Shown in pieces: positions 39,674 through 60,225 of a stretch of DNA of 64,000 bases (position 1 is the first letter of the stretch; the number at the start of each line of letters is the position of its first letter). Source of the DNA: a bacterium. GTDB taxonomy: Bacteria; Armatimonadota; Zipacnadia; Zipacnadales; Zipacnadaceae. Where the stretch lies: contig JAUVXR010000001.1 of NCBI GenBank assembly GCA_030603495.1, positions 4,993 through 68,992 of the forward strand. The letters are read 5' to 3'. The notes below the pieces were generated by a model. The model saw only the letters and a list, made by a program, of their open reading frames with translations. It did no database searches and had not been told where the DNA came from. The position numbers and the translations under genes were made by a program.

Positions 39674-40209
39674 TGTTTTCCTCCGCTAGACGTTTCGGGC
39701 GCCAGTGGTGTGTTTCATAATCCACTGGACGCCAAGTCCACTACATGGACCGGACGGTCGAGTCACCCCAACACGCTTGGTGCCTTTTCCCCATCCTATT
39801 CTCCGTGGCCTCCGGTGTCAATATCTCTGCTGCCGGTACAGTTCGCCGTTGCACCTCCTTTCTCCTGCTGAGAACTTGCTGCCCTCGGCCCTAGCAGACA
39901 TCCACCGGCCGCAGCTTGCCAGCGCTTCGTGATAGTGCTGGGGGTTGCACCTGTTATAGAAGCAGGCTACCACTCGTTCGAGTTTTGCGGGTGAAGTATA
40001 GATCACCAGCCCCAACTTGGCTCTAGCAGTGTGGTTAAGCTGCTCGAACCTGACTATGGAGTTGCGTCGAGAACCACCAAATACTAACATGTGACCTGGA
40101 CTCGGTTTCGCACGCAAGGTGATATGAAGGGCCCGATTTCACAAGTATTCCGCTATGCTGGTCCCTGGCTTAATCTTCACATACACCCTGTTGCCTGACA
40201 CAGCACAAC

Positions 40210-43200
40210 TCACCGCACCTCTTCCACCTGCGTGCCGCGGTCGCTGCCACCCCATGTCAATCGGTACGCTCGAAACCGTACGACGTCATCCCGGTTCAGA
40301 CACGAGAACTTGGCTCGTGCCAGATGGAACAGCTCACTCCGGCCCGTGGTCACAATTATCTGCATGCGTTCAGCAAGGACTCTCAACAAGTCCAGCAGTC
40401 CGTAAATATTGAGTTCGTCCATCGCCTGCACAGGGTCGTCCAGTATGGCGAGTCTTAGTTGTCCTTCACGAGAAAGCGCCCCCGCCAAGAATGCTGAAAG
40501 TGCGATCAGATTCTGCTGCGCCTCGTTCATATAGGCCTGCACCAGCTTGCGATCGCTAACCGACTGGGATGTGGCTCCTCGCCTGGACAAAGCCCAGAAC
40601 CGGAGGCCGCTCTCATCGACAGTCCAGCTTATGTCGTCAAATACGGGATGGCGTGCGAGTCTTCGATGAATGGTTCTCATTAGATCTCTCAGCGGCTCGA
40701 GTCCCTCTCGAACCAGCCGAGCTTGCTCGCGCTCCACAAGGCGACCGCATTCTTTACCGGCATGTTCCCACCGCTTGTTCTCGGATATCTTCGCATCTGT
40801 CTCCTCTATTCTACGCTCGAGGTTGGCCATTTGTCCGTTAAGCTCTGCAAGCTGTCGCCGTGCCGATCTGACCTCGATAAACGCCAGAGCGGCACGACCC
40901 TCACGAATCAGATCTTCAATATGAGTAAGTTCTCGGCGAAGATCGTCTACTGAGCCGGCCTCTTCCTTGTCGGCTTGGGCGGCCGTTCCTTGTAGCACTC
41001 GCAGGTCGCTTTCGATTATTGTCGCGAAGTCACGCGTTTGCTGAAGTGCAGCACGGGCCGAACTTGCGGCCTCCCGAGCTGGTGCCAGGGCCGCTAATTC
41101 GTGTTCCAGCTGCTCAACCATCTTTGCCTTCTTCTTCTCCACTTCAACGGCACGATCAGCATGAGCTTGTTCCTCAGTCTGTATCTGCTCTACTTGCTGG
41201 CCCAATTCAGCCTCATCGGCTGATGGGTGCCACGCGGCGGCCTCGAGCCGCTCTCGCGCCTGCTCCATGTCTTCCGCCAGCGGTACCCGCTGGGCCCGCA
41301 ACTCACGGAGCTCACTTTGTATGGCTTCGCGATGCTCGGTCGCTCTATGAAGGCCTTCCCCCAACTCGAATGTCTGCGCTTGGAGCCGCTGCTCCTCTAT
41401 GTGTACCAGTTCAAGGGCCTTTAGCCATTCCTTCTGCTCGCGTGCGACATCCGCCGCCGTCGTATCAGGCGGGAGATCACAACCGGCCAGGGCTTTCACC
41501 CGCTCATCCTTACGCCGAGTTAGTCTCTCGAGTTGAGACTCGAGCTCCCTCTTCCTAGTCTCGGCTACGCGTAGGGCTGCCTCGGACTTCTCAAGACGCT
41601 GTCCCGCTTCGGCAAGATTTTCCCGCGCCTCGTCCCGACGCTGAGCCAAATCGCTCTCTTCTCTCGTAGGGGCGCCAATCTGCCGGTCTATCGCTGCCAA
41701 CAGGCCCTCTCGGCTAGGCCATTTGTGCGAACACAGTGGGCACTCGTTGCTGTCAGCGCCCTCCTGAAGCTCCCGCAGAATCTGAGCCCGGCGCTCCCGA
41801 CCGGACCGTACTTCAGCAAGCGCACGCTCAAGATTCTCAAGACGTATGGCCTGGCAGTCTCTTTCTTGCCTGTTTGCCAACACTTCTTCTGTGGCTGCAT
41901 AGACAGCGTGCTCTGCACGATCGTCCTCGGTAACTGCGCCCGCGTAACGCTCTTCCCTCTGGCCGTCAGCCTCCATTAGGCTGCGAAGCTTCGACAGCTT
42001 CTCAACCCGCGAGCTTGCTTCTTCGTGACGACGCTTCGCCTCTTCGACCACCGGCCGCAATGAGAATAGGCCCTCATTTGCTTCCCCTATATTGGCGCTT
42101 AGTTCCGCGCTTCGCCCCTCAAACACACCAATCTGGTCCGACATCTCGGCAAGACGCTTGCCACGTCGCGCCACCAACGGTCTTTCCCGAAGCCACCATT
42201 CGATCGCTTCCCGCCGCTGCGTACATTGCGCGCTTCTCTCTGCAATGCTCTTCAGAGAGTTCTCCAGTACGACGAGCGCTTCACGTAGTTCGCTTTCCCT
42301 TTCCGCCGCGTTCTTGCTCCGGCACTCAGCCGCTGATAGCTTCTCGGTCTCTTTATCGATCTCAGAGCGTACTGATTCAAGCTGTTGGCGAAGTTCCTCC
42401 AAATGAATCGTTCGGTTTATGGTCTCCTGCACGCTTCGACGCTGCATGTCTAGGTGCTCGGTCACCTGCTCAACAACCGCTGCAAGAGACTGATCGTCAG
42501 TAGGCCTCTCGTCGAGAATGCCATGAATACCCGCTGGCCTATGATATTCGGTGGTGCCTCGCAAAAACTCCTCCGGTTCACCTACAGCGTCAACACCCGC
42601 GCCAGCTTTCTCTACCAACACCGCCTCCGAACGTTGTTGGTCTCTCAGGCCGGCCATCTGCTGGTCGAGCGACTCTTTTTCCTTCTGCAGGCCTGCCTCC
42701 GTCTTGGAGAGTTCCTGTACGATGGATTCCAACTTCCTTGTTGTCCGTGCCAGCCCGCGGTCCCCCAGCAGACTCGCGAAGTGAGCCAAACGCGCCTTCG
42801 GGTCCTTCGTCGAGAGCAGTTGTTTCATCTGGCCCTGTCCCAGAAACAACCGCGCGCTGCATCGCGCGCGCAGTTCAGCTTCTCGTTCGTACGTTTCAGG
42901 GGCCACACCGAGCCACTGCCGCCAAAGTGCGCGTTCATCGAGCGGCGCCTCTTCGTCGAACTGCCGGCGCCCCGCCTCTTCCTCGACACAGTGAAACATC
43001 TGGCCAGCGGCAGCACGGAGCGTAACGTCAGCCGCTTGATCCTGCATGAACAGATTCCGTAGTGGTGAGTCGGTTGTCTCCGGCATCGCCTCGGTCGCCA
43101 CCTGATCCGCGAGCTCGACCACGGCCCCGCAGATCGCCCACTCCAAGGCTTGAACGAAGCTAGTCTTTCCTGTGGCATTCTCACCGTATAGCAGTGTAAT

Positions 43201-43974
43201 GTCCGAGGACAAGTCCACCCGGACCGGACTTGCTCCATCACCTACACGGAACGACCGGAAATTGTGCAATGTGAGATCCTGCAATCGAACCCCGGACCCC
43301 GAGCGTCGGGACAGCTTCTGCCTCCGCGCATCGCCTTCACCCCCTACCAGCTCCTGGTCAAGGTCCACAGTAGACTGGATCGTCGGAGCCCTTCCGTACG
43401 CACCTCGCATAATCTCCTGTGCAATCTGGTGCACGCCAGGCCGTGTACCTGCCAAACCGTCGGCCAGCTCGGCAGGTACTCCAGCCTCGCGCAGGAGCCT
43501 CGCCACTGCTGTCTTGCTAGACTCGGCAATAGGGGCCGACTGCGCAAGGGGCACAAAGGTAAGGTCCCCGAGTTGATCTGGCCACTCGGCACCATCATAA
43601 CTCACAACCTCCTTCATGCACTCGCTTCGAGAAGTCCTGATTCTGTGAAGGAGCGCTTCGCGCATGTCCAACGGCACACTGTCGAGCGATCTGACATCGA
43701 CCAGAAAGAGTAGGTAGGCGTCTGGCCCGATACCCCCGCGCAAATGCCATTGACGCACGATCGATCCTAGCTCATGCTGCGCCTCTTGCCATCTCTTGCT
43801 CAAGCGGTCCCACGTCTCGCAACATTGGATCCCGAGCACGCCGCAAGGGAAGCTGTACACTGCCTCTAATTCGTCCGTCTCCACCGTTGACTCCCTATGC
43901 AGTTTCAGATCAAGACCGCTCAAGCGTCGCTCGACTTGCGCAAGCAAATCATCGCGATGCAACCGTACTGTCAT
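40210..43974 (-). CDS. SMC/SbcC/RecF-like ABC ATPase with long coiled coils and a roughly 230-aa N-terminal extension (1254 aa)
   Basis: Walker A is ITLLYGENATGKTSFVQALEWAICG, at about residue 250. About 800 aa of E/R/L/A/Q-rich coiled coil follow. The C-terminal D-loop/Walker B is LAILDDPVQAMDELN. Its start codon is adjacent to the stop of the upstream 641-aa gene (43974/43975). Confidence 0.75.
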   Translation of the reverse strand: MTVRLHRDDLLAQVERRLSGLDLKLHRESTVETDELEAVYSFPCGVLGIQCCETWDRLSKRWQEAQHELGSIVRQWHLRGGIGPDAYLLFLVDVRSLDSVPLDMREALLHRIRTSRSECMKEVVSYDGAEWPDQLGDLTFVPLAQSAPIAESSKTAVARLLREAGVPAELADGLAGTRPGVHQIAQEIMRGAYGRAPTIQSTVDLDQELVGGEGDARRQKLSRRSGSGVRLQDLTLHNFRSFRVGDGASPVRVDLSSDITLLYGENATGKTSFVQALEWAICGAVVELADQVATEAMPETTDSPLRNLFMQDQAADVTLRAAAGQMFHCVEEEAGRRQFDEEAPLDERALWRQWLGVAPETYEREAELRARCSARLFLGQGQMKQLLSTKDPKARLAHFASLLGDRGLARTTRKLESIVQELSKTEAGLQKEKESLDQQMAGLRDQQRSEAVLVEKAGAGVDAVGEPEEFLRGTTEYHRPAGIHGILDERPTDDQSLAAVVEQVTEHLDMQRRSVQETINRTIHLEELRQQLESVRSEIDKETEKLSAAECRSKNAAERESELREALVVLENSLKSIAERSAQCTQRREAIEWWLRERPLVARRGKRLAEMSDQIGVFEGRSAELSANIGEANEGLFSLRPVVEEAKRRHEEASSRVEKLSKLRSLMEADGQREERYAGAVTEDDRAEHAVYAATEEVLANRQERDCQAIRLENLERALAEVRSGRERRAQILRELQEGADSNECPLCSHKWPSREGLLAAIDRQIGAPTREESDLAQRRDEARENLAEAGQRLEKSEAALRVAETRKRELESQLERLTRRKDERVKALAGCDLPPDTTAADVAREQKEWLKALELVHIEEQRLQAQTFELGEGLHRATEHREAIQSELRELRAQRVPLAEDMEQARERLEAAAWHPSADEAELGQQVEQIQTEEQAHADRAVEVEKKKAKMVEQLEHELAALAPAREAASSARAALQQTRDFATIIESDLRVLQGTAAQADKEEAGSVDDLRRELTHIEDLIREGRAALAFIEVRSARRQLAELNGQMANLERRIEETDAKISENKRWEHAGKECGRLVEREQARLVREGLEPLRDLMRTIHRRLARHPVFDDISWTVDESGLRFWALSRRGATSQSVSDRKLVQAYMNEAQQNLIALSAFLAGALSREGQLRLAILDDPVQAMDELNIYGLLDLLRVLAERMQIIVTTGRSELFHLARAKFSCLNRDDVVRFRAYRLTWGGSDRGTQVEEVR

Positions 43975-45900
43975 TTACTCGTCACCTCCCCGCGCCAGGC
44001 CCGGCACCTGTGCCAGGACGTGCCGCAGGCCCTCTCCTATAGCGCAAAGATCGTCTGCTCCATCCTCAAGCACGCAGTCCTCGATCGCCTGGATCGGTAT
44101 AAGCAGCAACGTAGCACGAGTTATATCTAGGTCATCCAAATCCTCACTGATAGGATAGGTCGATGCGCTCGGTCCTGTCAACCCTCCTAACGGTATGGCC
44201 TGGACCTCTAACTGTCCCCTCACACCGCATATGAGGTATATGTCCCCATCCTTCGCGTCCGAGCTAGCGTCCTCCACAACCCGTGCAGGAATATCGGACG
44301 ATAGCAAGTCACACCCATCGCGAGAATGTATCGACGGCCCGTTCTTTTCAAGCCGAACCGCCGCCCGTCTCCCCGTCGTACCTGAAATAGAAGCGGCTTG
44401 AAGGGGGAACCATGCATGTACCATTGTAAGTCCTGCAACAAGATGGCGAAGCCGATCTACATGGGTTGAATCCCAGGTGTCGGGTTGGGGCTTCAGATCA
44501 TCCGGCCAAAAAACGAAGGCTTCCTGCCCCAACATCTGCAGGCACTCGCCATTGATCCCCCAGCAGACTCGTCTCAGTTCTTCGTAGCTATTTCTCAGAC
44601 GCTGATAGAGCTGCTCCTGCACGGGACTCTGTTGAGACGGCTCCAGAAGATCCGTTCCGGTACTCGACCGCAGTTCGCATGGAAAGCCTCGCCAAGCCGC
44701 AAAGCGATATGCTTCGGGCACTGCCGCAGCGTCGCTAGTAAAGTCAACTCGGCCGTCAGACGGACGGATGCCTAGCCAAAGCCCCCCGGTAACAGGCTGA
44801 ATTCCGGCCGCGCCAAAGGGCCCCGGCGTCCGTGAGGGGAGCCGCGCTTTGACTAAGAATGCTGATGCCCGGCGAGGTCTGAAGTCATAGCGAACGATGC
44901 TCTCACCGCGTCTACAACAACACTCAGGCGGGTCCTTCGCGTATCTACGATGCCCGCCAACCAATATGCCGGTGCAACCGTACTCGTCACGTTCCTCGCA
45001 AATTGCTGCGGCGTTGACCCTCACGACACTTGCACCCGAAACGGCCGCGCCCACCGCTTGTGGCGAATCCACAAGTAGCCGATAGAAGCCTGCCGCCATG
45101 AGTTCATGGTCAGGCTTTTGGTTATGCTGAATGTGGATGATCGCATCAAGCGTCCTGGGTGGCTCATCCCCCTGGAAATGCTCCACGATGCCCTGCGCCA
45201 CTGAGCACCCGCCGTCAGCCCCAGGTGCGTCCACGTTGAGCATGTCCGAGCAGATGGTGAAAGCGAAGGACGCCTGGTCAATCACCAGAATGTGGACGGT
45301 TTCGCCAGCACAGAGCGATTCCCGTTCTTGAGCACTCGGGCTGATCTTTCTCTGGAAGACTACGCCTGGTTCGCCATGCCGATCCCGCCAAGCGATCAGC
45401 ATTGCGTTGACCCAGCTAGCGCTCGGGGATGCACGTGCCGCCATACGCCTGAGCTCTTCGTTCTGCCATTCTTGATCCGTCGCATAATCTTGCACAAATT
45501 GCTCATATTCTTCCCGGCTCAGGCGCTCGATACCTGATACGACAAGCATGCCCGGATCCGTCTGCGCCTCCGCGACTGCCTCCAACAGCCCTCTCACGCA
45601 TTCCTGCGGAGCCGCTAATTCGGGCAGGATTGCGGCATGAAGAGGCTGGAAATTCGCCGACACGCGTTCCTCCGGGTTAAGGACCAACTCGATGACTGAG
45701 TCGACGACTTGCTTCTGGTTGTCTCTCGAGTCACCCTCGATACGGCCCACTTCATCGCCGCTCTGAACAACAGCATAAAGAGGCTGTACAAGCAGGAAGT
45801 TAAGGTCTCCAGCAGGATTCCAGCCCAGATCTACTGTGTTAGTCCTCGGTTCCATGTCAAACCTCGCCCTGCGGACACGCGCGGTATGTCGCCTTGCCAC
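43975..45900 (-). CDS. CN-hydrolase (nitrilase-superfamily)-like protein, paralog of 36473-38191 (641 aa); tentative
   Basis: Shares HAAILPELAAPQECVRG with VFPELSVPARCLQD and TVHILVIDQASFAFTICSDML with TVVFLCNEHPPD of the 572-aa protein. It is co-oriented and contiguous with the SMC-like gene. Confidence 0.4.
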   Translation of the reverse strand: MARRHTARVRRARFDMEPRTNTVDLGWNPAGDLNFLLVQPLYAVVQSGDEVGRIEGDSRDNQKQVVDSVIELVLNPEERVSANFQPLHAAILPELAAPQECVRGLLEAVAEAQTDPGMLVVSGIERLSREEYEQFVQDYATDQEWQNEELRRMAARASPSASWVNAMLIAWRDRHGEPGVVFQRKISPSAQERESLCAGETVHILVIDQASFAFTICSDMLNVDAPGADGGCSVAQGIVEHFQGDEPPRTLDAIIHIQHNQKPDHELMAAGFYRLLVDSPQAVGAAVSGASVVRVNAAAICEERDEYGCTGILVGGHRRYAKDPPECCCRRGESIVRYDFRPRRASAFLVKARLPSRTPGPFGAAGIQPVTGGLWLGIRPSDGRVDFTSDAAAVPEAYRFAAWRGFPCELRSSTGTDLLEPSQQSPVQEQLYQRLRNSYEELRRVCWGINGECLQMLGQEAFVFWPDDLKPQPDTWDSTHVDRLRHLVAGLTMVHAWFPLQAASISGTTGRRAAVRLEKNGPSIHSRDGCDLLSSDIPARVVEDASSDAKDGDIYLICGVRGQLEVQAIPLGGLTGPSASTYPISEDLDDLDITRATLLLIPIQAIEDCVLEDGADDLCAIGEGLRHVLAQVPGLARGGDE

Positions 45901-46733: not shown

Positions 46734-48614
46734 TCATTCGTCGCAGCATTCTGTCCCCTGGCTCAATATGCTCAGGACATACTGCAGGGCAAAAGGCGTC
46801 CGGTCCCTGAAATAGATAGCGAGTTGATCTTCATCCACTAGCCAAGACCCTATACTCATGCCCCACTTGGTGATAGTCTCGTTGGCGAAGGCAACGAAGG
46901 CAGCCCCAAGTCGAACAGATCCATGAAAATCCGAGCATTCGAGACACTGCTCTGGCTGATTACCTCCATACCAGCTCGAGGGTAATCTCTCACAGAATGG
47001 CATCCCCCATTCTCTCCGTCCCTTGCAGCTGGCGACTTGTTCAGGGGTTGGGTGTGTAATCTCTGGAAAGATAATAGGTACAATGGATAAGCAACCGCCC
47101 ACGTCTACGTATACCCTTATCTTACAAGCAGCCGACTCAGACACAAAGGAAGGCACCAAGACGTTCTTCGAAGAGAAGAACGTCGGGTTACTGACGGTCA
47201 ACAGCCGCCTGCCGAAGACTCTGGCTGTCGATGGTAACGCGAACAAGATGCCAGCAGATTGCAGCCACCCATAGCAAGCGTGAAGATCGAAGTTCTCGGT
47301 GTCCATTTGTATGACGGTTCTTCCAGGCTCAAACGGTGGGCACAGCGCAGCTAGGCTTAGCGCGATAGCCGCCTCTTCCTCTGCGTACTCATCTCTATGT
47401 AGTATTTTCCAGAAGACCCCCTGTCTAGCGTCAAGCAGTGTGGGCTCGTCTGCAGACAGCAAGAGGGCGCAGGGTGTAACCCGTGCACCTAGCTCTTGCA
47501 GGCGGCGTGCTGTCTCCACTATCCTGGTCCCGGTGCTCACTGTGTCATCAAAAAGCAACACTTTCTTCCCTTGGAACTCAGTGCCAGGTACGTGACCCAG
47601 CACGGGGAGTGGGATCAGAGCAGTTGCGGGCATGTCGTTCTGCTTCAGGACTTGGTGAAGTAGACGAGCGCCCTTCCTCGCAATAGCGACGACATAATCG
47701 CAGTTGTCCTTGACCGCCGCCTTGAGAAACTCGCCTACGCCTTCGAAGTACTGTTCGATATGAGCAGCAGTAAATGCCCCCGCTGGATCAAGGGCAATGT
47801 TGACCCCTTTCCTCAGTATCTCACCGGGTCGATATCTCCTCGTGTATGTCTGCTTGGTCACCCCTTCGCAGGCCTCAGTTGGTTTCGCGACCCCAACCGG
47901 AACGAGAAGCCCCGTTTCTAGCAGCGTGTCCAGAGCCTCACTGATCTGCTCGGGGGTGAGCCAACCCAGCCCTTCCTTTAATTCAGAGACAGAAAGCCCC
48001 GGCTTCTCGGTCGAGGTGACTGCACCAGTCAGATATCCCAGAATCGCCTGACAGTTGCCGAGATCAGGTTCCGAGAGGTGCACGTCGGATGGCGGGAGGA
48101 GCTTCTTATGGAATCCGGCCTCTACCATAAGAGAGACGATGCGATCCAAGTCTACGACTTCCACAGGAACCGGGTTCCTGGAGTTGTAGTCATGCACGCT
48201 CCGCTGCGCTTCGGCCGTCAGCTTCCCGTTGAAGACGAGTATGTACCTCTTAGGCCACTTCTCATCTACTTCGTGATGATGAACGAAGTGATCCATTGCG
48301 TCACTGAATTGGGGCTTAGCTTCGGTTCTCCATCGTGCTTCGGAAATGTCGCCCGTCTTGATTTGAACCAGCAGAACCTGAGTTGTGCCGAGCACATCAA
48401 GAGCTCCAGGCACTATGGCCACGATGTCCTTGCCGTGTTCCGACGAGCCGTGAATGATATCGCTGCGCAGCCGCTGGGCCTGAAGGAACCGGTTAACGAC
48501 GTCGCGCAGCTCCTCCTCACGCAGGGAGCGCAACAGGGCACCTAGCTCCTCAGCCCACCGAAAGTCGCTCTGCTCTGTCATCGGAATCCTCCTCCCGGAA
48601 CACCTCACGGGCAT
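46734..48614 (-). CDS. fusion protein: N-terminal restriction-endonuclease-like (Mrr/PD-(D/E)xK-like) domain, central region, C-terminal PRTase domain with Cys-rich tail (626 aa)
   Basis: The N-terminus has HGSSEHGKDIVAIVP ... VLLVQIKTGDI, a D ... Q-x-K arrangement like Mrr-type nucleases. The PRTase loop is GKKVLLFDDTVSTGTRI. The tail has CLECSDFHG and other Cys. The C-terminal half is paralogous to 35457-36476. Confidence 0.6.
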   Translation of the reverse strand: MPVRCSGRRIPMTEQSDFRWAEELGALLRSLREEELRDVVNRFLQAQRLRSDIIHGSSEHGKDIVAIVPGALDVLGTTQVLLVQIKTGDISEARWRTEAKPQFSDAMDHFVHHHEVDEKWPKRYILVFNGKLTAEAQRSVHDYNSRNPVPVEVVDLDRIVSLMVEAGFHKKLLPPSDVHLSEPDLGNCQAILGYLTGAVTSTEKPGLSVSELKEGLGWLTPEQISEALDTLLETGLLVPVGVAKPTEACEGVTKQTYTRRYRPGEILRKGVNIALDPAGAFTAAHIEQYFEGVGEFLKAAVKDNCDYVVAIARKGARLLHQVLKQNDMPATALIPLPVLGHVPGTEFQGKKVLLFDDTVSTGTRIVETARRLQELGARVTPCALLLSADEPTLLDARQGVFWKILHRDEYAEEEAAIALSLAALCPPFEPGRTVIQMDTENFDLHACYGWLQSAGILFALPSTARVFGRRLLTVSNPTFFSSKNVLVPSFVSESAACKIRVYVDVGGCLSIVPIIFPEITHPTPEQVASCKGRREWGMPFCERLPSSWYGGNQPEQCLECSDFHGSVRLGAAFVAFANETITKWGMSIGSWLVDEDQLAIYFRDRTPFALQYVLSILSQGTECCDE

Positions 48615-48928
48615 CTGCGCTCCGAGTATGCCATCGCTGCGCTATGAATGTCAAGATCAAGACCCGGACCCAGATACGTCCTTAACCCGCTGAAACGGCC
48701 TTCTGGCGCCATGGGCGGCCACTTCCGTTCGCGGCGCGCCGGGTGCATCCGCCTGTCGTGCAGTTGAGGAACCCTCTTCAGAACGCGTGAAGCTGCCAAC
48801 ACATGCGCACACTTTGCACAAACCTCGCAAATATTATCGCCACAACTCACTGCGTATCGGACGGGATCATGAGCCGCTCTCGTTGTCGATGCAAGCATTC
48901 TCACCGAGGCCCTTGTGGCGCCGGACAT
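48605..48928 (-). CDS. small Cys-rich hypothetical protein (107 aa)
   Basis: Has a CGDNICEVCAKCAH cluster. It overlaps the start of the 626-aa gene by 10 nt on the same strand. Weak support. Confidence 0.25.
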   Translation of the reverse strand: MSGATRASVRMLASTTRAAHDPVRYAVSCGDNICEVCAKCAHVLAASRVLKRVPQLHDRRMHPARRERKWPPMAPEGRFSGLRTYLGPGLDLDIHSAAMAYSERRCP

Positions 48929-49165: not shown

Positions 49166-49750
49166 TCAGCCACTTGGAAGGTGATCCGCAGCGAGGTGCA
49201 TCACTTCGCCCTCTCCGGTACCGTGCAGCCCTGTTAGCCCTGTTGGCAGCTGACTATCGTGCGCTGTTCTCCGAAGCTCGTCAAGCGCAGCGAGCTGAGC
49301 CGCCTCGTTTGCGAGACCGACGATCTCTCCCAGCCGCCGCCCAGAGTAGAGCTGTTGCTCCCCAGGGGGAAGGGATATAACGTACTGCCGGATCTCCTCG
49401 GGTAGACGGAGCAGACTCATAACCTGCGTAACCCTGGCTCTGCTCAACTTGTACCTTCGCGCAATCGCCGCTCGATTGTTAACCACTTCGGCCTCCAAGA
49501 GTTCCTGAAACTCATAGGCAAGTAGCAGAGGATGCCTGTAAGCACTGCCTTGAGATTCCTCAATGTCGGGTTTTGCCCGTCGTTTCAGGCTTTCTGGGCA
49601 AAATGTAAACCGCTCGAAAAAGTTCCTGCAGTTGTCCGCCCCGGGGAGCCAAGAGAGGACAACAGGGGGGACTGTAGCCGCCTGTTCAGCGGTGTCCCCT
49701 TTGTTTTCCGATGGCCCAAGCTTACTCGCCGGCTGCCAACACAGGATCAA
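49166..49750 (-). CDS. putative DNA-binding protein with ParB/KorB-like helix-turn-helix
   Basis: The segment RAAIARRYKLSRARVTQVMSLLRLPEEIRQYV resembles the ParB/Spo0J HTH. Its start overlaps the integrase stop (ATGA at 49747-49750). The true start may be internal or a non-ATG codon. Confidence 0.45.
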   Translation of the reverse strand: MILCWQPASKLGPSENKGDTAEQAATVPPVVLSWLPGADNCRNFFERFTFCPESLKRRAKPDIEESQGSAYRHPLLLAYEFQELLEAEVVNNRAAIARRYKLSRARVTQVMSLLRLPEEIRQYVISLPPGEQQLYSGRRLGEIVGLANEAAQLAALDELRRTAHDSQLPTGLTGLHGTGEGEVMHLAADHLPSG

Positions 49751-50673
49751 ACTGCTCTTGAAGCTGCGCTCTCGGCAGATAGCGGATGCGCCGTGATTGC
49801 CTCACGCAGTTGCTGTGCGCCCACATGCAAGTAGATGGCCGTCGTATCCAGCCGGCTGTGGCCCAGCAGATGCTGGATGGAGACCAGATCAGCGTTACCA
49901 GTCTGCAGCAGAAGCGTCGCGAAAGAATGCCTCAACGTATGCATGCTCACGCCGGACCGGTTGATGCCACTCCGGTTGAGGGTGTTCTTCCAGATGATTT
50001 GCAGGCGGGTTGGGTAGATGCGGTTGCCGCGGTTCGTGGTAAACAGGTAATCATGTCTCTTCGTGCGGCGATACTCTAGCCAATCAGCAATCGCCTGGCT
50101 CAGCTCCTCGACCAGCGGAATGATGCGCGTCTTGTTCCCCTTCCCGCGCACAACACGCAGTGTCCGAGCGCTTAGATCAGCATCGCCCGTTTTCAAGCTG
50201 AGCAACTCGCCTCGCCGTAAGCCGGCGTAGATGAACGTGGCCAATATCGCATGGTCACGAAACGCGCAGTACTCAGTGCGCTGCTGCAGAGCCGCATCCA
50301 GTAGTTTCTGCAGGGATTCCTTGCTGAGATAGACGGGGAGGGTCTTCTCACGGCGCGGCATACTAATCTTTGCCATGACCCCTGGCGAGGCCAAGTCCCT
50401 CTCACACAGATACTTCCAGAAGCTCTTCAGCGAACAGACCCGGCGAGCTACACTGTTGCTGCACAGCCCGCGCTCGTACATCGCCACGATCCACGAGCGG
50501 ACCATTTCCACGGTGATCTCCGCAGGCTTATCTACCGCGTAGTTTTCTTGCAAATGTGTGAAGAATTGTGTCAGATCGGAGCGATAAGACGTGGCGGTAA
50601 GGCGGCTGCAGCCCCTCTCGGCCTGCAGGTAGAGCAGGAATTCCTGAGCGAGTGTGTCTATAATGCTTTGCAC
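49747..50673 (-). CDS. tyrosine recombinase (XerC/XerD-like integrase, 308 aa)
   Basis: SAM-like N-domain (LQAERGCSRLTATSYRSDLTQF). Catalytic region HTLRHSFATLLL ... LLGHSRLDTTAIYLHV. It ends about 170 nt from the 3' end of rnpB. Confidence 0.85.
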   Translation of the reverse strand: MQSIIDTLAQEFLLYLQAERGCSRLTATSYRSDLTQFFTHLQENYAVDKPAEITVEMVRSWIVAMYERGLCSNSVARRVCSLKSFWKYLCERDLASPGVMAKISMPRREKTLPVYLSKESLQKLLDAALQQRTEYCAFRDHAILATFIYAGLRRGELLSLKTGDADLSARTLRVVRGKGNKTRIIPLVEELSQAIADWLEYRRTKRHDYLFTTNRGNRIYPTRLQIIWKNTLNRSGINRSGVSMHTLRHSFATLLLQTGNADLVSIQHLLGHSRLDTTAIYLHVGAQQLREAITAHPLSAESAASRAV

Positions 50674-50839
50674 TTATGTGCACATCCTTTCTGTGCACCA
50701 GAAGCGCGAAGCCAACTAATCTGCGCTCAGGAGTTGCATTTTCCTGCCGGAATTCACTGCTTTGCCACAAGTGAGTACCATAAGAATGGTTATGTGCCGC
50801 TTTTCGCGCTCACTTGTGAACCTCCGGCCCCAATTTGTC

Positions 50840-51360
50840 CACAGAGAGTGAGTCTATAAGCCGAGTTCTGTGCCTGCCCCCGCTGGGGCAGGTGACGATC
50901 ATTTATCTGGGAGGGCTGTTGCCAGCCCCCTCTAGCGGCCTACCCGAGAGCTAAAAGCGGGCTACTTCTTCTCCAGACCCGGCCACCCCATCGGTCCTGG
51001 GGTCCAACAACGCACTTGGCATTGTTCGGCCCATAGTCATCCGGTGCCGTAGCACCTGGCCAACCTGGACCCAGCCCCAACCAATGAAGTGATAGGGTCT
51101 GGAGGCGCTCTCCTATTGGGCCTTGCTCCGGGCGGGGTTTGGCCAGCCGCCGGGTCACCCCGACGCTGGTGAGCTCTTACCTCACCATTTCACCCTTGCC
51201 TGTGCCCCCAAGGGGGCCATCGGCGGTGTAGTTTCTGTGCCACTTTCCGCGGGTCACCCCGCCTGGCCTTTCGCCAGCGCCCTGCCCTGTGGAGCTCGGA
51301 CTTTCCTCACCGGCTACAAGAGCCGGCGCGACCGCCCGACCCACTCTCCAATTATATTAT
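50840..51360 (-). ncRNA. rnpB: RNase P RNA, bacterial type A (rnpB)
   Basis: The reverse complement carries the universal blocks: GAGGAAAGUCCGAGCUCCACAGGGCAGGG, ACCGCCGAUGGCC, GGUAAGGGUGAAAUGGUGAGGUAAGAGCUCACC, CCGGAGCAAGGCCCAAUAGGAG, GGGUAGGCCGCUAGAG and the 3' ACAGAACUCGGCUUAUAGACUCACUCUC. The 3' end pairs with the 5' GGAGAGUGGGUC (P1). It is about 520 nt, with a roughly 150-nt expansion relative to E. coli M1 RNA. Ends are approximate to within 10 nt. Confidence 0.85.
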
Positions 51361-51513
51361 ACCCGATCCTCGTGCAGGGGTAAATATACTCCAGACGAAA
51401 ATACAAACCGACGCATTCACTCCCACCTACTGGCGAGTGCAAAAGAAGGAGGCGGCCATTGGAGGAATATCCACAAGTACTATCGAACTAACAAGCAATC
51501 TGCATTTTGACAC

Positions 51514-53190
51514 TTGGCTGAGGTGAGAGAAATGTCTGAGACGTACATACCTGAAGTTGACATGGTATCGTTGTATTTGGAAATCGCCAGAAACCTAGTC
51601 GAGCCGCTCGAAATAATCAGGGAGGCTATTAGCAACTCGCACGACGCTACGGCTGCCGAAATCTCAATTATAGTGGACCCGGACACAAACGGCGCTCACA
51701 CGATTGAGATTGTCGACGACGGAGAAGGAATGGATGAAGATGGGATTAAGCGCTTCTTCGATCTCGGCCGCTCTGAGAAGCTTCCTGACCGCATCGGAGA
51801 AAAGGGCCTCGGCACCAAGACCTACTTCCGAAGCCAGCGCATCGAGGTAGAGACTCAGCGTAATGATCAATCATCGAAGATGATATCCGCCCGCATGGAA
51901 GACCCTTGGCAAAAGCTCCAGAACGACGAAATGCCAACTGTTGACATTGATTTCCGTAACAGAGAGCCAGGCAAAGATGGCACCACAGTGCGCATCATTG
52001 GTTATTGTATCGACCAGCCTGAGCGCTTTTTCAACTTTAAAATTCTCGAGGACTACATCCGCTGGTTTACGGCTGCTGGAAGCTTCAAGACCAAGTTCGC
52101 AGATTATCCGTACCTGCACAAGCAAGTGAAAAACCTTGGTGTTGCACCAAGACTGTTTCTCACTGCCCCGACTAGAAATGGCAACAAAGAGGACCACGAG
52201 ATCCCTGGCACCCATTGGTTCGCGCCCCCCAATGAGACACCCAAAGTGCCCCAAGGAGATACTGATTTGACCCCGTCGGACTTGTATTGCAGACACTTCG
52301 GCCCCTTCGAAAAGAGTACGACCACCCAACGCAAACAAGTTTCTGTACAAGTCTACGGAACCGTCTCGGGGGAGCACTCTCGCCGCACGGCATCCCATCT
52401 CCGTCAAGGCCACACATTGAAGTCTCGGTTTGGGTGCTATCTATGCAAGGACTTCATTCCATTCACGAGGCGAAATCAGTTAGTGGCGTCGGATGAAGCC
52501 TACTTACACTTCCACATATTGGTGAACTCACAAGCATTCTCAATGACGAGTGACCGCAATAGTCTGGCGAACGAAGACGATGCCGCAGTTCAGTGGGCAC
52601 TGGAGGCAGCTAAGGAGATCATAGATGGCAATATCAAGCCCATTGCAGAGCGGACCTACTTTGCCATGCGGAAGCAAGAAGAAGAGGAGGAGAAGCTCCA
52701 AAGGCAACGGGACAAGCTGGCTGCACGTAGAGGCGAGTTTAGTGGATTACCTAATCTGCGACAACCCAGCGACCAATGGCCCGTTCTCAAGCGCCCAACT
52801 TGCGAAGCACAGGTCGCAGTACTTTTCGCGGCAGTGCTGGGAAACCAGGAGACCCGCGAACTCCTCCCCTGCAAGCTGAAGATAGGGACATACTCGCAGG
52901 ACTCCCCCACGGATATGATTTGCGTCGACGACAATGGTAAGCCGGTACTTGTGGAGTTGGAATACAAATTGAGCAATCTTTTCCAGCATGGCCATGCTCT
53001 TGACACGTTTGATTATGTTGTGTGTTGGGATCGGGACATCGAGGTGGGCGAGAGCCGCCCCGTCGCCGGCAAGAACCTTACCTTGGCCGAGAAGGACAAT
53101 CAATGGTTTCTGACATGGGGGGCGAAGATCCGTGTTCCAGTGATCGCTCTGCAGGAGATACTAGCACGCTACGCAGCTGAAGCCACGTAG
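51514..53190 (+). CDS. GHKL-superfamily ATPase (histidine-kinase/MutL/MORC-like ATP-binding domain) protein (558 aa)
   Basis: Bergerat-fold motifs are present: N-box EAISNSHDA, then IVDDGEGMDEDGIKRFFDLGRSEK (D-x-G-x-G), then GEKGLGTK (G-x-x-G-x-G). The C-terminal roughly 300 aa are unassigned. It is the first plus-strand gene right of rnpB. Confidence 0.65.
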   Translation: MAEVREMSETYIPEVDMVSLYLEIARNLVEPLEIIREAISNSHDATAAEISIIVDPDTNGAHTIEIVDDGEGMDEDGIKRFFDLGRSEKLPDRIGEKGLGTKTYFRSQRIEVETQRNDQSSKMISARMEDPWQKLQNDEMPTVDIDFRNREPGKDGTTVRIIGYCIDQPERFFNFKILEDYIRWFTAAGSFKTKFADYPYLHKQVKNLGVAPRLFLTAPTRNGNKEDHEIPGTHWFAPPNETPKVPQGDTDLTPSDLYCRHFGPFEKSTTTQRKQVSVQVYGTVSGEHSRRTASHLRQGHTLKSRFGCYLCKDFIPFTRRNQLVASDEAYLHFHILVNSQAFSMTSDRNSLANEDDAAVQWALEAAKEIIDGNIKPIAERTYFAMRKQEEEEEKLQRQRDKLAARRGEFSGLPNLRQPSDQWPVLKRPTCEAQVAVLFAAVLGNQETRELLPCKLKIGTYSQDSPTDMICVDDNGKPVLVELEYKLSNLFQHGHALDTFDYVVCWDRDIEVGESRPVAGKNLTLAEKDNQWFLTWGAKIRVPVIALQEILARYAAEAT

Positions 53191-53631: not shown

Positions 53632-54234
53632 GTGATCACGATGAATCAGACGGATGGCAATGGACGGTTTAATCTGCCGGAGACGGCACAGATATACGCG
53701 ACCCTAGCGGTGTGCGAGGATACCGAGGAGGCCAGCGAGGTGCTGCAGGCCCAGGGCCTGGAGGTATCACCGCGGCGGCTGGGCTACTATCAGCGGCACG
53801 GCGCGCACCGGATCAAGCAGATGCGCGAGTCGGGGTTGGCGAATCAGTTGGTGGGCCAACAGGCCCGGCATATGAGCCGCATCAAGCGTATGGATCAGTT
53901 TAGCGAGTGGATTGAGCAGCAGATGATGCGCCCAGAAGGGCCCAGTGAACTGCTCGACCGCGAGCGGGCCGCCATAATTCACCGCTATCGGGAGATGATG
54001 GAGACACTTATTCAGTCGGATAGTCCGGAGGGAGCTACAGACCAAGACGAAGAGGTCGAACCACAGTACCAGCAACGGGTCCAGAGGGGCTTGAGCCTGT
54101 TGGAGCTTATCAGTGATGGACAAGAGCCAGACGAGATGTTTGAGCAGCTTATACTCGACGCCACCCGGCGCGTGGCAGCCGCATCTGGCGCAACTTTCCC
54201 ACCATCTGGGGCAGATAAGTCCCCACTGGAATGA
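53632..54234 (+). CDS. putative terminase small subunit (200 aa)
   Basis: Acidic, helix-rich protein immediately upstream of, and overlapping, the large terminase gene. Assignment is by position and composition only. Confidence 0.4.
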   Translation: MITMNQTDGNGRFNLPETAQIYATLAVCEDTEEASEVLQAQGLEVSPRRLGYYQRHGAHRIKQMRESGLANQLVGQQARHMSRIKRMDQFSEWIEQQMMRPEGPSELLDRERAAIIHRYREMMETLIQSDSPEGATDQDEEVEPQYQQRVQRGLSLLELISDGQEPDEMFEQLILDATRRVAAASGATFPPSGADKSPLE

Positions 54235-55717: not shown

Positions 55718-55870
55718 GCGGAGCAGCCAGGACTCAGAACACAGGAGTCGGAATACGCAACACACGGCGATGGTAGTTAGGTCCAGAACAGCCGTGGCCT
55801 GGACTGATGAGAACGGGGTGGGCGGCTACAAAGCCGGCGATCACGGCTTTCACAAAGGAGAACTTCAAGC

Positions 55871-57112
55871 ATGTCAGAGGCGTTGATTAAGGCTTATGTG
55901 GTCGGGAATGAGGCGCGGCCTGGGGAGAGTAAGCAGCTCCCGCAGTCACCGTGGCACGAGGACTACGTCAACGGGCAGGCCGTCGAGCCGCCGTACGATC
56001 TGGACGCGCTGGCCGAGCTCTATGAGACCAATGCCGCGCACAAGGCCTGCGTGGACGCCAAGGTGGTCAACTGCGTGGGACTGGGCCACCGGTTCGTACC
56101 TACCACCAGCCAGCCAGACCAGGTCTCCCCGGCTAACCTGGCGCTGCTCGAGCACCTGTTTGCCAACTGCAATCTGCAGATGACCTTCACCGAGGTGATG
56201 CGGGCAGTCTGGACCGACGTGGAGTGCCTGGGGAACGGCTACGTGGAAGTGACGCGCAATAGCCTGGGCAGCATTGACGGCTTCTACCACGTGCTGGCCA
56301 CCACGATGCGGATCAAGCCCAACGGGGAGGGCTTCGTGCAGCTCCGGGGCACCCAGAAGTGCCACTTCCAGCCCCTGGGCACCGACGCGAGCGAAGACCC
56401 CCTCACCGGCGAGACCCAGAACGAGATCATCCATTTCAAAAAATATACCCCGCAGTCGGGCCTATACGGTATCCCCGACATCGTTGCCGCCCTGGCGGCG
56501 GCGGCCGGTGACAAGGCCGCGCGTGAATACAACATTGACTTCTTCGAGCACAATGCCGTCCCGCGCATGGCGATAGTCGTCGAGGGCGGACAGCTTTCCA
56601 AAGAACTGCTCTGGCAGATCCAGAACTACATGGAGACCGAGATCAAGGGGCATGGCCACAAGACGCTGGTTCTGGACGTGCCGGGCAACGATGTGAAGGT
56701 GCGCATCGAGCCGCTGACGGTGGGGCGGCAGGACGAGGCCTCGTTCCTGGACTACCGCAAGGCCAACCGCGACGAGATCCTGATGGTCCACCGCGTCCCG
56801 CCAAGCAAGATCACCATCGTCGAGAATGCCAACCTGGCCAACTCCCGGGACCAGGATAAGACCTTCCGCGAGCAGGTCATCCGCCCCGAGCAGCGTCGGA
56901 TTGAGTACCAGATCAACCGGATGATCCGCGAGCAGATGGGCATCGGCGACTGGGAGTTCACCTTCCGCGAGGCCGACCTGGGCGAGGAGCGCGAGCACGC
57001 GGAGATTGCCCGCATCTACGCCGATTTGGGCGCCTGGACAGTGGACGAAATCCGCCAGCGCCAAGGCCTCTCGCCGTTAGTAGAAGCTGGCCACGAGGTC
57101 GAGGCTGAGTAG
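55871..57112 (+). CDS. phage portal protein (HK97-family-like)
   Basis: 413 aa, directly after the large terminase. Composition and length fit HK97-type portals. The order terminase-portal-protease-capsid is canonical. Confidence 0.6.
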   Translation: MSEALIKAYVVGNEARPGESKQLPQSPWHEDYVNGQAVEPPYDLDALAELYETNAAHKACVDAKVVNCVGLGHRFVPTTSQPDQVSPANLALLEHLFANCNLQMTFTEVMRAVWTDVECLGNGYVEVTRNSLGSIDGFYHVLATTMRIKPNGEGFVQLRGTQKCHFQPLGTDASEDPLTGETQNEIIHFKKYTPQSGLYGIPDIVAALAAAAGDKAAREYNIDFFEHNAVPRMAIVVEGGQLSKELLWQIQNYMETEIKGHGHKTLVLDVPGNDVKVRIEPLTVGRQDEASFLDYRKANRDEILMVHRVPPSKITIVENANLANSRDQDKTFREQVIRPEQRRIEYQINRMIREQMGIGDWEFTFREADLGEEREHAEIARIYADLGAWTVDEIRQRQGLSPLVEAGHEVEAE

Positions 57113-60210: not shown

Positions 60211-60225
60211 GCGAACGGCTGACGG

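What the first reader, a model, noticed from the sequence alone, without database searches (positions are those of the whole stretch)
49166..51360. RNase P RNA gene flanked at its 3' end by an integrase: probable rnpB-targeting genomic island; rnpB itself is unusually long
A clear type-A RNase P RNA lies on the minus strand, with all universal sequence blocks present and P1 pairing intact. A XerC/D-like tyrosine recombinase plus an overlapping HTH gene lie immediately beyond its 3' end. This is the arrangement seen when islands integrate into the 3' end of a stable-RNA gene, so the accessory region to the left, starting with the PRTase, SMC and pyr clusters, is probably one or more islands. 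Integration at rnpB is far less common than at tRNA or tmRNA. The RNA is about 520 nt, with a roughly 150-nt insertion between the CCGGAGCAAGGCC-AAUAGG block and the GGGUAGGC block. This is large for a bacterial RNase P RNA.
Basis: partly seen in the sequence, partly recalled or inferred. Interest (0 to 1): 0.6.

Follow-up and report, generated by a model that had tools for sequence, protein, structure and literature searches.

The report
Defence island integrated into RNase P RNA gene
A mobile DNA island carrying an anti-phage system has inserted into the tail end of the essential RNase P RNA gene, using its own Xer-like recombinase and supplying a replacement gene end; this is a rare target for an otherwise ordinary kind of element.

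Summary
A class-A RNase P RNA lies at 50841-51347 (-) (Rfam 278 bits, full model). It is 507 nt, not about 520. The extra length is a 134-nt hairpin between P16 and P17, a P16.1-type expansion. Close relatives have 0, about 30 or about 52 nt at that site.

A Xer-like tyrosine integrase (49747-50673, -) starts 167 nt past the RNA's 3' end. Comparative data support rnpB targeting:
- Thirteen integrase homologues (48-92% identity), retrieved by protein alone, all have either rnpB (4) or only its last 20-30 nt (9) just upstream.
- Related genomes share the 5' flank of rnpB but diverge from a point inside its 3' end.
- The junction is a dif-like site, CA(T/G)AA|CTCGGC|TTATAGACNCAC, in the conserved CR-V block.
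- Cargo is anti-phage here (Lamassu) and in relatives (CBASS, NACHT, restriction-modification).

No distal copy of the rnpB end exists in the window. A conserved island-end motif at 40062-40120 suggests an island of about 11 kb whose far site was lost.

Integration into RNase P RNA has a catalogued precedent (a TIGER island in Mycobacterium avium 104). This is therefore a new member of a known kind, of moderate interest.

The parts
51356..51384 (-). rnpB promoter-like site, TTTACC-17 nt-TATAAT. The -10 hexamer ends 8 nt upstream of the mature 5' end.
   Evidence: 10 of 12 matches; sequence read
50841..51347 (-). RNase P RNA gene (rnpB), bacterial class A, 507 nt
   Evidence: RF00010, 278 bits, E = 9.9e-90, model 1-367; P1 pairing
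50971..51104 (-). 134-nt expansion hairpin (P16.1-type) between the P16 5' strand and P17. It is closed by a 10-bp stem, CUCCAGACCC/GGGUCUGGAG, and has a branched tip.
   Evidence: MFE about -80 kcal/mol, z = -5.4 against shuffles; relatives have 0, about 30 and about 52 nt at this site. Coordinates.
50848..50874 (-). Attachment core (attL) inside rnpB CR-V. Left (bacterial) arm GGCACAGAA is 50866-50874. Central region CTCGGC is 50860-50865. Right arm TTATAGACTCAC is 50848-50859. From the central region to the RNA 3' end (50841) the sequence is inferred to be supplied by the island.
   Evidence: fragment-only junctions share ..CATAA|CTCGGC|TTATAGAC(A/T/C)CAC, with palindromic arms. for coordinates.
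50765..50820 (-). Conserved spacer element. It holds a second dif-like site, GGCACATAA-CCATTC-TTATGGTACTCAC (50771-50798), flanked by a 10-bp inverted repeat, CACAAGTGAG/CTCACTTGTG.
   Evidence: the pattern occurs only here, at one palindromic locus matched on both strands; 0.07 expected. ATAA-N6-TTA(T/C) is at +73 to +75 in 12 loci; 1.45 per kb near cores against 0.009 per kb elsewhere. for the inverted repeat.
50648..50665 (-). Right-arm-like half-site, CATTATAGACACACTCGC, lying over the integrase start codon region
   Evidence: second-best nhmmer hit of the att profile in the window, E = 0.013. Conserved in L001 and L002.
49747..50673 (-). Xer-like tyrosine integrase, 308 aa, GTG start. Catalytic residues R153, K181, H245, R248, H272 and Y281 are present.
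49166..49750 (-). ORF with a weak ParB-type HTH. The conserved part runs from about residue 88 (from about 49166 to 49490). It is probably a small HTH regulator or directionality factor, and the 5' extension that overlaps the integrase is doubtful.
   Evidence: HTH_ParB E = 0.001, below threshold; homologues next to att cores in L035, L106 and L107, on the other side of the core.
48605..48928 (-). 107-aa ORF with no confident family match
46734..48614 (-). 626-aa protein with a phosphoribosyltransferase domain and an OloB-like N-terminus (cargo)
43975..45900 (-). LmuA-like protein (Lamassu effector candidate), 641 aa
   Evidence: PADLOC LmuA, 1.8e-14
40210..43974 (-). LmuB, the SMC-type ATPase of Lamassu, 1254 aa
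   Evidence: PADLOC LmuB, 9.8e-62. SMC_N, AAA_23.
40062..40120 (-). 'Seg A', a conserved 55-59-nt motif that marks the distal end of related islands
   Evidence: It is unique in the window. In L001, L024, L034, L057 and L082 it lies 236-617 nt upstream of an rnpB fragment on the same strand.
39899..39947 (-). Short piece read here as a decayed transposase C-terminus (..YHEALASCGR..; reading from my own knowledge, no family hit). It occupies the place where the distal att core would be expected.
   Evidence: 91% identical over 47 nt to L001 14567-14613

Best explanation
The segment is the left junction (attL) of an integrative genomic island that targets the RNase P RNA gene.

The island's own Xer-like tyrosine recombinase recognises a dif-like core. 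The element form is GTGxGxxCATAA|CTCGGC|TTATAGACxCAC. Its counterpart in the chromosome, GGCACAGAA|CTCGGC|TTATAGACTCAC, is the conserved CR-V block (the 3' strand of P4) plus the 3' strand of P1 of rnpB. Strand exchange in or next to CTCGGC replaces the last 20-25 nt of the RNA gene with a copy carried by the island. RNase P RNA therefore stays intact, here with one G.U pair in P1.

The island then reads, on the minus strand: spacer with further integrase-site-like motifs, integrase, small HTH protein, a 107-aa ORF, PRTase-domain protein, LmuA and LmuB (a Lamassu anti-phage system). It ends at a conserved end motif (seg A, 40062-40120). That is about 11 kb. The distal att copy has been lost, probably through insertion and decay of an insertion sequence, so this copy is probably fixed in place.

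Shown: the RNA gene, the integrase and its catalytic residues, the association of this integrase clade with the rnpB 3' end, the break in synteny inside rnpB, and the defence cargo. Inferred: the exact crossover position, the role of the extra sites, the 11-kb extent, and the loss of attR.

Separately, the RNA's extra length is a P16.1-type expansion helix that varies in length within this lineage.
For: - rnpB: 278 bits over the full model.
- Integrase domains and catalytic residues. It scores below the XerC and XerD equivalog cut-offs, 246 against 335 and 233 against 330 bits.
- Two copies at 90-92% identity occur in one MAG, each preceded by 31 nt of the rnpB 3' end and by no rnpB body.
- A sample retrieved by protein only: 10 of 10 homologues at 48-86% identity have rnpB (L110, L112, L114, L115) or only the fragment (L106/L107, L108/L109, L111, L113, L116, L117) upstream of the integrase.
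- A pattern-based metagenome scan gave four loci with rnpB plus integrase. It also gave about a dozen with fragment plus integrase, five of them with enough upstream sequence to exclude an rnpB body (L041, L092, L093, L099, L100).
- The junction is sharp at CA(T)|AACTCGG, and the arms are palindromic.
- Synteny: the rnpB 5' flank is conserved in L064 and L071, and the 3' side differs from the core onward.
- P1 shows foreign 3' strands. The window has G.U, L064 has a G-A mismatch, and L110 and the L106 fragment have the perfectly complementary GACCCAC.
- Cargo next to these integrases is consistently defence: Lamassu here; CBASS, NACHT, CHAT, and MmeI-type methylase with SNF2 and PLD helicases elsewhere.
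- Seg A marks island ends.
- Precedent: the TIGER island Mav1.21.RNaseP_RNA, with a tyrosine integrase gene (Y-Int.8) beginning 37 bp inside the island's left end and a 42-bp identity block covering the same 3'-end region.
Against: - No second copy of the rnpB 3' end exists anywhere in the 64-kb window. The searches required at least 21 of 31 matches, and a profile search was also run.
- No locus with both ends of one island was recovered.
- No empty site was found in a close relative. Every close relative of this rnpB also has an integrase module, or a spacer typical of one (L071, L028), downstream.
- Excision and integration were not observed.
- The crossover position is inferred from sequence junctions only.
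- The 11-kb extent rests on one 55-59-nt motif.
Confidence: 0.8

Rival explanations
1. The recombinase is the housekeeping XerC or XerD of the chromosome. It simply happens to lie next to rnpB in this lineage, and there is no island.
For: The best family hits are XerC and XerD. The nearest solved structures are XerA, XerD and a XerC-like protein. The adjacent site is dif-like. Several relatives also have rnpB followed by this gene.
Against: - Scores are well below both equivalog cut-offs.
- Two copies at 90-92% identity occur in one MAG.
- Most homologues lie beside a 20-30-nt rnpB fragment with no rnpB.
- The DNA beyond the recombinase is different in every genome and consists of defence genes.
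- P1 mismatches show that the 3' ends were exchanged.
Confidence: 0.03
2. Only the small module (rnpB fragment, spacer, integrase) is the mobile unit. The variable genes beside it accumulated independently at a defence-island hot spot. On this reading the Lamassu genes are not cargo of this integrase.
For: DNA homology between the window and L001, L002 and L106 stops at the integrase stop codon. No distal att site was found. The window holds two more integrases (7097-8251, 20032-21327) and many defence-like genes further left.
Against: - A tyrosine recombinase needs two sites, and fragment-only junctions show element-type left arms joined to the core, so something ends there.
- Seg A recurs 236-617 nt upstream of such junctions and occurs once in the window, directly after LmuB.
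- Integrase-proximal conserved modules followed by variable cargo are the norm for islands at tRNA genes (established knowledge; Islander paper, PMC4383910).
Confidence: 0.12
3. The 134-nt insert in rnpB is a mobile insertion (a miniature inverted-repeat element or an intron-like sequence), not a structural expansion of the ribozyme.
For: It is bounded by a perfect 10-bp inverted repeat and is absent from the closest relative, L064.
Against: - There is no other copy in the window or in any of the first 105 fetched loci, the set searched.
- Relatives have shorter, unrelated hairpins at exactly the same point: 0, about 30 and about 52 nt.
- No Rfam intron family matches the window.
- P16.1 expansions at this position are known in class-A RNAs (PMC9945441).
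- A sister lineage has a 336-nt expansion of P12 instead. Helix growth therefore seems to be a habit of these RNAs.
Confidence: 0.05

Closest known systems
Genomic islands integrated into the 3' ends of tRNA and tmRNA genes by tyrosine integrases (Islander/TIGER class; PMC4383910, PMC7192596)
   Same: - The integrase gene lies next to the 3' end of a stable-RNA gene.
- The element carries a copy of the target's 3' end, so the gene is regenerated.
- A conserved integrase-proximal module is followed by variable accessory cargo.
- Some fetched junctions suggest tandem accumulation at one site.
   Different: - The target is rnpB rather than a tRNA or tmRNA gene.
- The integrase is Xer-like, with a SAM-like core-binding domain and no arm-binding domain detected.
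- The core is a dif-like palindrome.
- The displaced fragment at the far end is missing here.
TIGER island Mav1.21.RNaseP_RNA in Mycobacterium avium 104 (NC_008595.1:2220283-2241568; supplementary file 6 of PMC7192596)
   Same: The target is the RNase P RNA gene. The identity block (..gaacagaatccggcttacaggcc..) covers the same CR-V and P1 3'-terminal region. A tyrosine integrase gene (Y-Int.8) begins 37 bp inside the island's left end, and the island is 21 kb.
   Different: That island has both ends and an empty reference site. Ours has neither in hand. The paper's main text does not discuss it.
XerC/XerD-dif chromosome dimer resolution, and mobile elements that exploit Xer (IMEX)
   Same: The recombinase fold and catalytic residues match. 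The core site has the ATAA-N6-TTAT centre typical of dif (my own knowledge of the E. coli dif sequence).
   Different: - The element encodes its own recombinase, whereas IMEX use the host's.
- The scores fall below the XerC and XerD equivalog cut-offs.
- The gene is multi-copy.
- The site lies inside an RNA gene, not at the replication terminus.
P16.1 and other expansion helices of class-A RNase P RNA (PVC superphylum; PMC9945441)
   Same: An extra helix is inserted in the P15-P16-P17 region of an otherwise canonical class-A RNA.
   Different: The lineage is different (near Armatimonadota or Chloroflexota, judging by the integrase relatives). The length is 134 nt with a branched tip, and it varies from 0 to 134 nt among RNAs whose cores are nearly identical.

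Membership tests
Bacterial RNase P RNA class A (Rfam RF00010) | Covariance-model score at or above the gathering threshold, over the full model | tested here: met
   278 bits against 100, model 1-367 of 367, not truncated
Bacterial RNase P RNA class A (Rfam RF00010) | Conserved P4 strands (GAGGAAAGUCC ... ACAGAAxxCGGCUUA) and closure of P1 | tested here: met
   alignment; 10 P1 pairs, one of them G.U
Bacterial RNase P RNA class A (Rfam RF00010) | Catalytic activity in pre-tRNA 5' processing | not testable with these tools
   needs a biochemical assay
Integrative island at the 3' end of a stable-RNA gene (Islander-type definition) | Tyrosine integrase gene adjacent to the target gene's 3' end | tested here: met
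   integrase starts 167 nt downstream on the same strand, with its catalytic residues intact
Integrative island at the 3' end of a stable-RNA gene (Islander-type definition) | The element carries a copy of the target's 3' end that regenerates the gene | tested here: met
   integrase modules with a 20-31-nt rnpB 3' fragment in non-rnpB contexts; mismatched P1 3' strands.
Integrative island at the 3' end of a stable-RNA gene (Islander-type definition) | Displaced target fragment (a direct repeat) at the distal island end | tested here: not met
   no second copy in the 64-kb window. Only an end-marker motif is present.
Integrative island at the 3' end of a stable-RNA gene (Islander-type definition) | Related genomes with an unoccupied site | tested here: inconclusive
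   close relatives carry different integrase modules at the same point. Only distant taxa show rnpB followed by a terminator.
Housekeeping XerC / XerD | Score at or above the NCBIfam equivalog cut-off | tested here: not met
   XerC 246.4 against 335.15 bits; XerD 233 against 329.6 bits
Housekeeping XerC / XerD | One conserved chromosomal copy with stable neighbours | tested here: not met
   two copies at 90-92% identity in one MAG; neighbours differ in every locus.
Lamassu anti-phage system (cargo) | LmuB SMC-type ATPase with an adjacent LmuA effector | tested here: met
   LmuB 9.8e-62, LmuA 1.8e-14, adjacent and co-oriented. The LmuA match is weak. Anti-phage activity is not testable here.
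P16.1-type expansion of RNase P RNA | An extra helix between P16 and P17 that folds independently | tested here: met
   position; MFE -80 kcal/mol, z = -5.4; hairpins of variable length at the same site in relatives. Covariation could not be tested because no homologous copy exists.

The most novel reading that the evidence does not exclude
A previously undescribed clade of Xer-like integrases, widespread in metagenomic bacteria near Armatimonadota and Chloroflexota, uses a dif-like site embedded in the universally conserved CR-V/P4 strand of RNase P RNA as its chromosomal target. The site is nearly invariant across bacteria. The elements can therefore move between lineages, leaving mismatched P1 helices behind. 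They may stack in tandem, which would make rnpB a dedicated landing pad where anti-phage systems accumulate.
Probability: 0.45. Interest if true: 0.55.

Novelty: new member of a known kind. Interest (0 to 1): 0.42.

Why it matters
The finding extends the list of stable-RNA genes used as integration targets beyond tRNA and tmRNA. It adds a whole integrase clade, not a single case. It also gives a concrete and testable site: a 30-bp dif-like palindrome centred on CTCGGC in CR-V.

Automated island finders that look only at tRNA and tmRNA genes would miss these elements and the defence systems they carry. The site is conserved in most bacteria, so the integrase could be of practical interest for targeted insertion.

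For RNase P research, the lineage offers natural variants for testing how much peripheral growth the ribozyme tolerates. These are P16.1 helices of 0-134 nt and a 336-nt P12 expansion giving a 706-nt RNA, plus chimaeric P1 helices created by integration.

None of this overturns current understanding. It is an unusual target for a familiar mechanism.

Tried and rejected
- **Distal att repeat.** BLAST-short of 50650-51450 against the window, whole-window direct repeats, a 28-mer with 3 mismatches, Hamming scans at 21 of 31 matches or better and an nhmmer profile of 27 att sites all found only the rnpB copy.
- **A 13-nt direct match.** It lies between 50792-50804 and 7069-7081, just beyond the third integrase. 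I examined it as a possible island boundary and rejected it, because there is no flanking similarity and E = 0.63.
- **Exact-sequence look-ups of the window's integrase.** With a V or an M start, both found nothing, so the source contig is not on record.
- **Viral contigs.** No match to the att pattern and no integrase relative.
- **Plasmids.** Only generic Xer proteins at 36% identity or less. The element is not a known phage or plasmid.
- **Extending the window/L001 similarity beyond seg A.** A local alignment showed that the similarity stops after 55-59 nt. The ORFs lying over seg A are not homologous as proteins.
- **Second shared piece.** The 47-nt piece at 39901-39947 looks to me like a decayed transposase C-terminus, not an att site.
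- **Literature.** Searches for rnpB as an integration site found no paper that discusses it. Only a supplementary table entry turned up.
- **A fuzzy-regex scan** timed out and was replaced by the Hamming scans.
Full report
**1. The observation**

An Rfam scan of the whole window gives a single hit: bacterial RNase P class A (RF00010) at 50841-51347 on the minus strand. It scores 278 bits against a gathering score of 100, with E = 9.9e-90, and covers model positions 1-367.

- No tRNA or tmRNA gene is present in the window.
- A promoter-like site, TTTACC-17-TATAAT, lies at 51384..51356 on the minus strand. Its -10 hexamer ends 8 nt before the mature 5' end. No terminator-like site lies on that strand between the RNA and the next gene.
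- P1 closes with nine Watson-Crick pairs and one G.U pair.
- The RNA is 507 nt, not about 520.

Downstream on the same strand, after a 167-nt spacer, lies a 308-aa tyrosine recombinase (49747-50673).

- It matches Phage_integrase at 5.9e-36 and also the SAM-like N-terminal domain.
- Its best family matches are XerC (246 bits) and XerD (233 bits). Both are far below the equivalog cut-offs of 335 and 330 bits.
- The nearest solved structures are XerA, XerD and a XerC-like protein. The catalytic residues R153, K181, H245, R248, H272 and Y281 are all present.

The next ORF (49166-49750) has only a sub-threshold ParB-type HTH match.

**2. The extra length of the RNA**

The insertion is 134 nt (50971-51104). 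It lies after the 5' strand of P16 and before P17.

- It is closed by a perfect 10-bp stem. It folds into a long hairpin with a branched tip at about -80 kcal/mol, z = -5.4 against shuffled sequences.
- No other copy exists in the window or in the first 105 fetched loci, the set searched.
- Three metagenomic RNase P RNAs have almost the same core as the window's RNA (by eye, few differences in alignment A3). At exactly this point they have 0 nt (L064), about 30 nt (L071) and about 52 nt (L037). The latter two appear able to form hairpins, judged by eye and not folded.

It is therefore an expansion helix of variable length, not a mobile insert. P16.1 elements at this position are known in class-A RNAs of the PVC group (PMC9945441). 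A neighbouring lineage that carries the same kind of island has grown P12 instead, by about 336 nt. That gives RNAs of 706 and 703 nt (L047 and L061).

**3. Is the integrase an rnpB-targeting element?**

No second copy of the rnpB 3' end exists anywhere in the window. Comparison with other genomes nevertheless gives a clear answer.

*(a) The closest integrase relatives.* A protein-based scan of genome contigs found three close relatives. Two are contigs of one MAG (92% and 90% identity). The third is a Candidatus Zipacnadia (Armatimonadota) MAG (84%).
- None has rnpB nearby.
- Their DNA homology with the window starts at the integrase stop, runs through the spacer and ends at window 50871. That point is 31 nt inside rnpB.
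- Each module therefore carries its own copy of ACA(G/T)AACTCGGCTTATAGACTCAC...

*(b) A sample retrieved by protein alone.* I took ten further homologues (48-86% identity) from a protein search and fetched their contigs.
- Four have a class-A RNase P RNA directly upstream: L110, L112, L114 and L115.
- Six have only the 20-30-nt fragment: L106/L107, L108/L109, L111, L113, L116 and L117.
- The fragment lies about 170-210 nt before the integrase start, or about 480 nt in L112.
- With the three in (a), that makes thirteen of thirteen.

*(c) A pattern-based scan.* A metagenome scan for the 20-nt core returned three groups:
- many ordinary rnpB genes of unrelated taxa, followed by terminators;
- four loci with rnpB plus integrase (L037, L047, L050, L064);
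- about two dozen junctions where unrelated DNA is joined sharply to the core. About a dozen of these have an integrase homologue next to the core. Several others run into spacer sequences of the same types at a contig end.

*(d) Synteny.* The genes on the 5' side of rnpB are conserved at 63-86% amino-acid identity in L071 and L064. These genes are a GHKL-type ATPase, a 200-aa protein, a large-terminase-like protein and a portal. The sequence 3' of the core differs in each genome. The window, L064 and L071 therefore diverge at a point inside the RNA gene.

*(e) Traces of exchange in P1.* RNAs with the 5' strand AGAGUGGGUC have different 3' strands:
- GACCCACUCU, a perfect match, in L110 (the same GACCCAC occurs in the L106 fragment);
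- GACUCACUCU, giving one G.U pair, in the window;
- GACACACUCU, giving a G-A mismatch, in L064.

This is expected if the 3' strand is brought in by elements that evolved in other hosts.

**4. Anatomy of the site**

I aligned 27 fragment-only junctions and 8 junctions linked to rnpB.
- The element form is ..TG.G.(a)(c)ATAA | CTCGGC | TTATAGAC(A/T/C)CAC CTCTCC.
- The rnpB form is (G)CACA(G/A)AA | CTCGGC | TTATAGAC...
- In the element form the two 12-nt arms are inverted repeats of each other. An example is GTGTGTCCATAA / TTATAGACACAC, which produces self-hits on both strands.

This is the layout of a Xer-type core: two arms around a 6-bp centre, with the ATAA-N6-TTAT signature of dif (the dif comparison is from my own knowledge). 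It matches the Xer-like nature of the enzyme. In the window the centre is 50860-50865, the bacterial arm is 50866-50874 and the right arm is 50848-50859.

I infer that strand exchange occurs in or beside CTCGGC, and that everything from there to the 3' end of the RNA comes from the element.

There are further site-like motifs in the spacer.
- A second ATAA-N6-TTA(T/C) motif sits at +73 to +75 from the core in 12 loci. These span several otherwise dissimilar spacer types. The density is 1.45 per kb near cores against 0.009 per kb elsewhere in the same loci.
- In the window the pattern occurs only at that locus (50779-50794), which is palindromic and so matches on both strands. The expectation is 0.07. 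The site is embraced by a 10-bp inverted repeat.
- A right-arm-like half-site lies over the integrase start (50648-50665).

Their role is not tested. Accessory binding and autoregulation are possibilities.

**5. Extent and cargo**

Beyond the integrase, the minus strand carries:
- the HTH ORF;
- a 107-aa ORF;
- a 626-aa PRTase-domain protein with an OloB-like N-terminus;
- LmuA (1.8e-14) and LmuB (9.8e-62), which together form a Lamassu system.

A 55-59-nt motif, seg A (40062-40120), begins 90 nt after the LmuB stop codon at 40210. It is unique in the window. It recurs in L001, L024, L034, L057 and L082, always 236-617 nt upstream of an rnpB fragment on the same strand. I read it as a marker of the distal end of these islands.

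In the window no core follows seg A. Instead there is a 47-nt piece (39901-39947) that I read as a decayed transposase C-terminus. It is 91% identical to a piece near the end of the L001 cargo. The likely picture is an island of about 11 kb (50865 to about 40060) whose attR was destroyed. This is inference, and I give it roughly even odds.

Cargo beside homologous integrases elsewhere is also defence-related:
- CBASS components (SMODS, SAVED, E1/E2/JAB);
- NACHT and CHAT proteins;
- MmeI-type methylases with SNF2 and PLD helicases;
- AAA_15/21 ATPases.

Some fragment-only junctions have defence or other mobile genes upstream (L111, L117, L002). Some have two cores in a row (L057, L108). Both patterns fit tandem accumulation at rnpB.

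**6. The HTH gene**

Only residues from about 88 to 165 of the 194-aa ORF are conserved. They match an 84-aa ORF in L106/L107 that starts MVNNRAEIARRYGLSRARVTQ. They also match a segment in L035. In those loci the gene lies on the other side of the att core and is divergent from the integrase. It is probably a small regulator or directionality factor. The 4-nt overlap with the integrase is most likely an artefact of ORF extension.

**7. Comparison with what is known**

Mechanistically this is the familiar kind of island that integrates into tRNA and tmRNA genes (PMC4383910). The target is unusual. Full-text searches found no paper that discusses rnpB as an integration site.

The supplementary data of Mageeney et al. 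2020 (PMC7192596) do list one case: the TIGER-mapped island Mav1.21.RNaseP_RNA in Mycobacterium avium 104.
- It is 21,286 bp.
- It has a tyrosine integrase gene beginning 37 bp inside its left end.
- Its 42-bp identity block..gaacagaatccggcttacaggcc.., covers the same part of the gene.

The target is therefore rare but catalogued. What is new here is an integrase clade (180 database proteins at E <= 1e-40) tied to this target, together with its dif-like core and its defence cargo.

**8. Verdict**

- Novelty: a new member of a known kind.
- Interest: moderate.

Noticed in passing
window 53632-61485 (+): A phage head-morphogenesis module lies on the 5' side of rnpB: large-terminase-like protein (54113-55717), portal (55871-57112), head-maturation-protease-like protein (58393-59265) and major capsid (59266-60210). 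Two glycosyltransferases are interleaved (GT4 at 57112-58176, GT9 at 60226-61485). GC3 is about 0.8 against about 0.6 elsewhere. The terminase and portal are 84-86% identical in L064 and L071. The module is therefore a conserved feature of this clade (prophage remnant or GTA-like?), not part of the rnpB island.
   Followed up: partly
window 33742-39673 (-): A cluster of an OMP-decarboxylase-like protein (38906-39673), a PyrE-like PRTase (38266-38931), a 572-aa protein with a weak match to the nitrilase part of DRT systems, a ShosT-like PRTase (35457-36476) and a 571-aa protein of unknown family. It lies just beyond the presumed island end. It looks like a nucleotide-metabolism-based defence candidate rather than housekeeping pyr genes.
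   Followed up: partly
window 7097-8251 (-) and 20032-21327 (-): Two further tyrosine integrases lie on the same strand. The first (384 aa) is 31-43% identical to integrases of the rnpB-associated loci. No rnpB fragment is found near either. Between them lie HerA-like ATPases (8289-10415, 26554-28593), a ThiF/E1-like protein (11508-13172) and a MoxR AAA protein with a metallopeptidase-like partner (22325-24996). The whole left 50 kb looks like stacked mobile and defence DNA.
   Followed up: partly
window 29500-31300: A stretch of about 2 kb with no convincing ORF and a strong C-over-G skew (GC skew -0.33). It has an 18-nt tandem repeat at 29534-29668 and a perfect 40-nt direct repeat at 30271-30310 and 30465-30504. 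Its nature is unknown, and no Rfam family matches it.
   Followed up: no
L047 225-930 and L061 537-1239: Class-A RNase P RNAs of 706 and 703 nt, with a GC-rich insertion of about 336 nt at the tip of P12. Both are from a lineage that carries this kind of island: L047 has the integrase downstream, and L061 ends in the same spacer at its contig end. These are much longer than the window's RNA.
   Followed up: partly
window 51514-53190 (+): A GHKL/HATPase_c_3 protein (558 aa, with weak MutL-like, BbrUII-like and MzaB-like N-terminal matches) lies divergent from rnpB. It is present in the window and in L071 (86% identity) but absent from L064. It is a small presence/absence difference on the otherwise conserved flank.
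   Followed up: partly
L113 4518-6233: A group II intron (Rfam D1-D4 matches, plus an RT/maturase ORF) lies about 400 nt upstream of the rnpB fragment of an integrase module.
   Followed up: no
window 40062-40120 (-); L001 4095-4149; L034; L057; L082; L024: Seg A is conserved across islands with unrelated cargo. By eye it contains a short imperfect inverted repeat (GTCCAGG...TCTGGAC). Its function is unknown; it could be an arm site, a promoter or a small RNA.
   Followed up: partly
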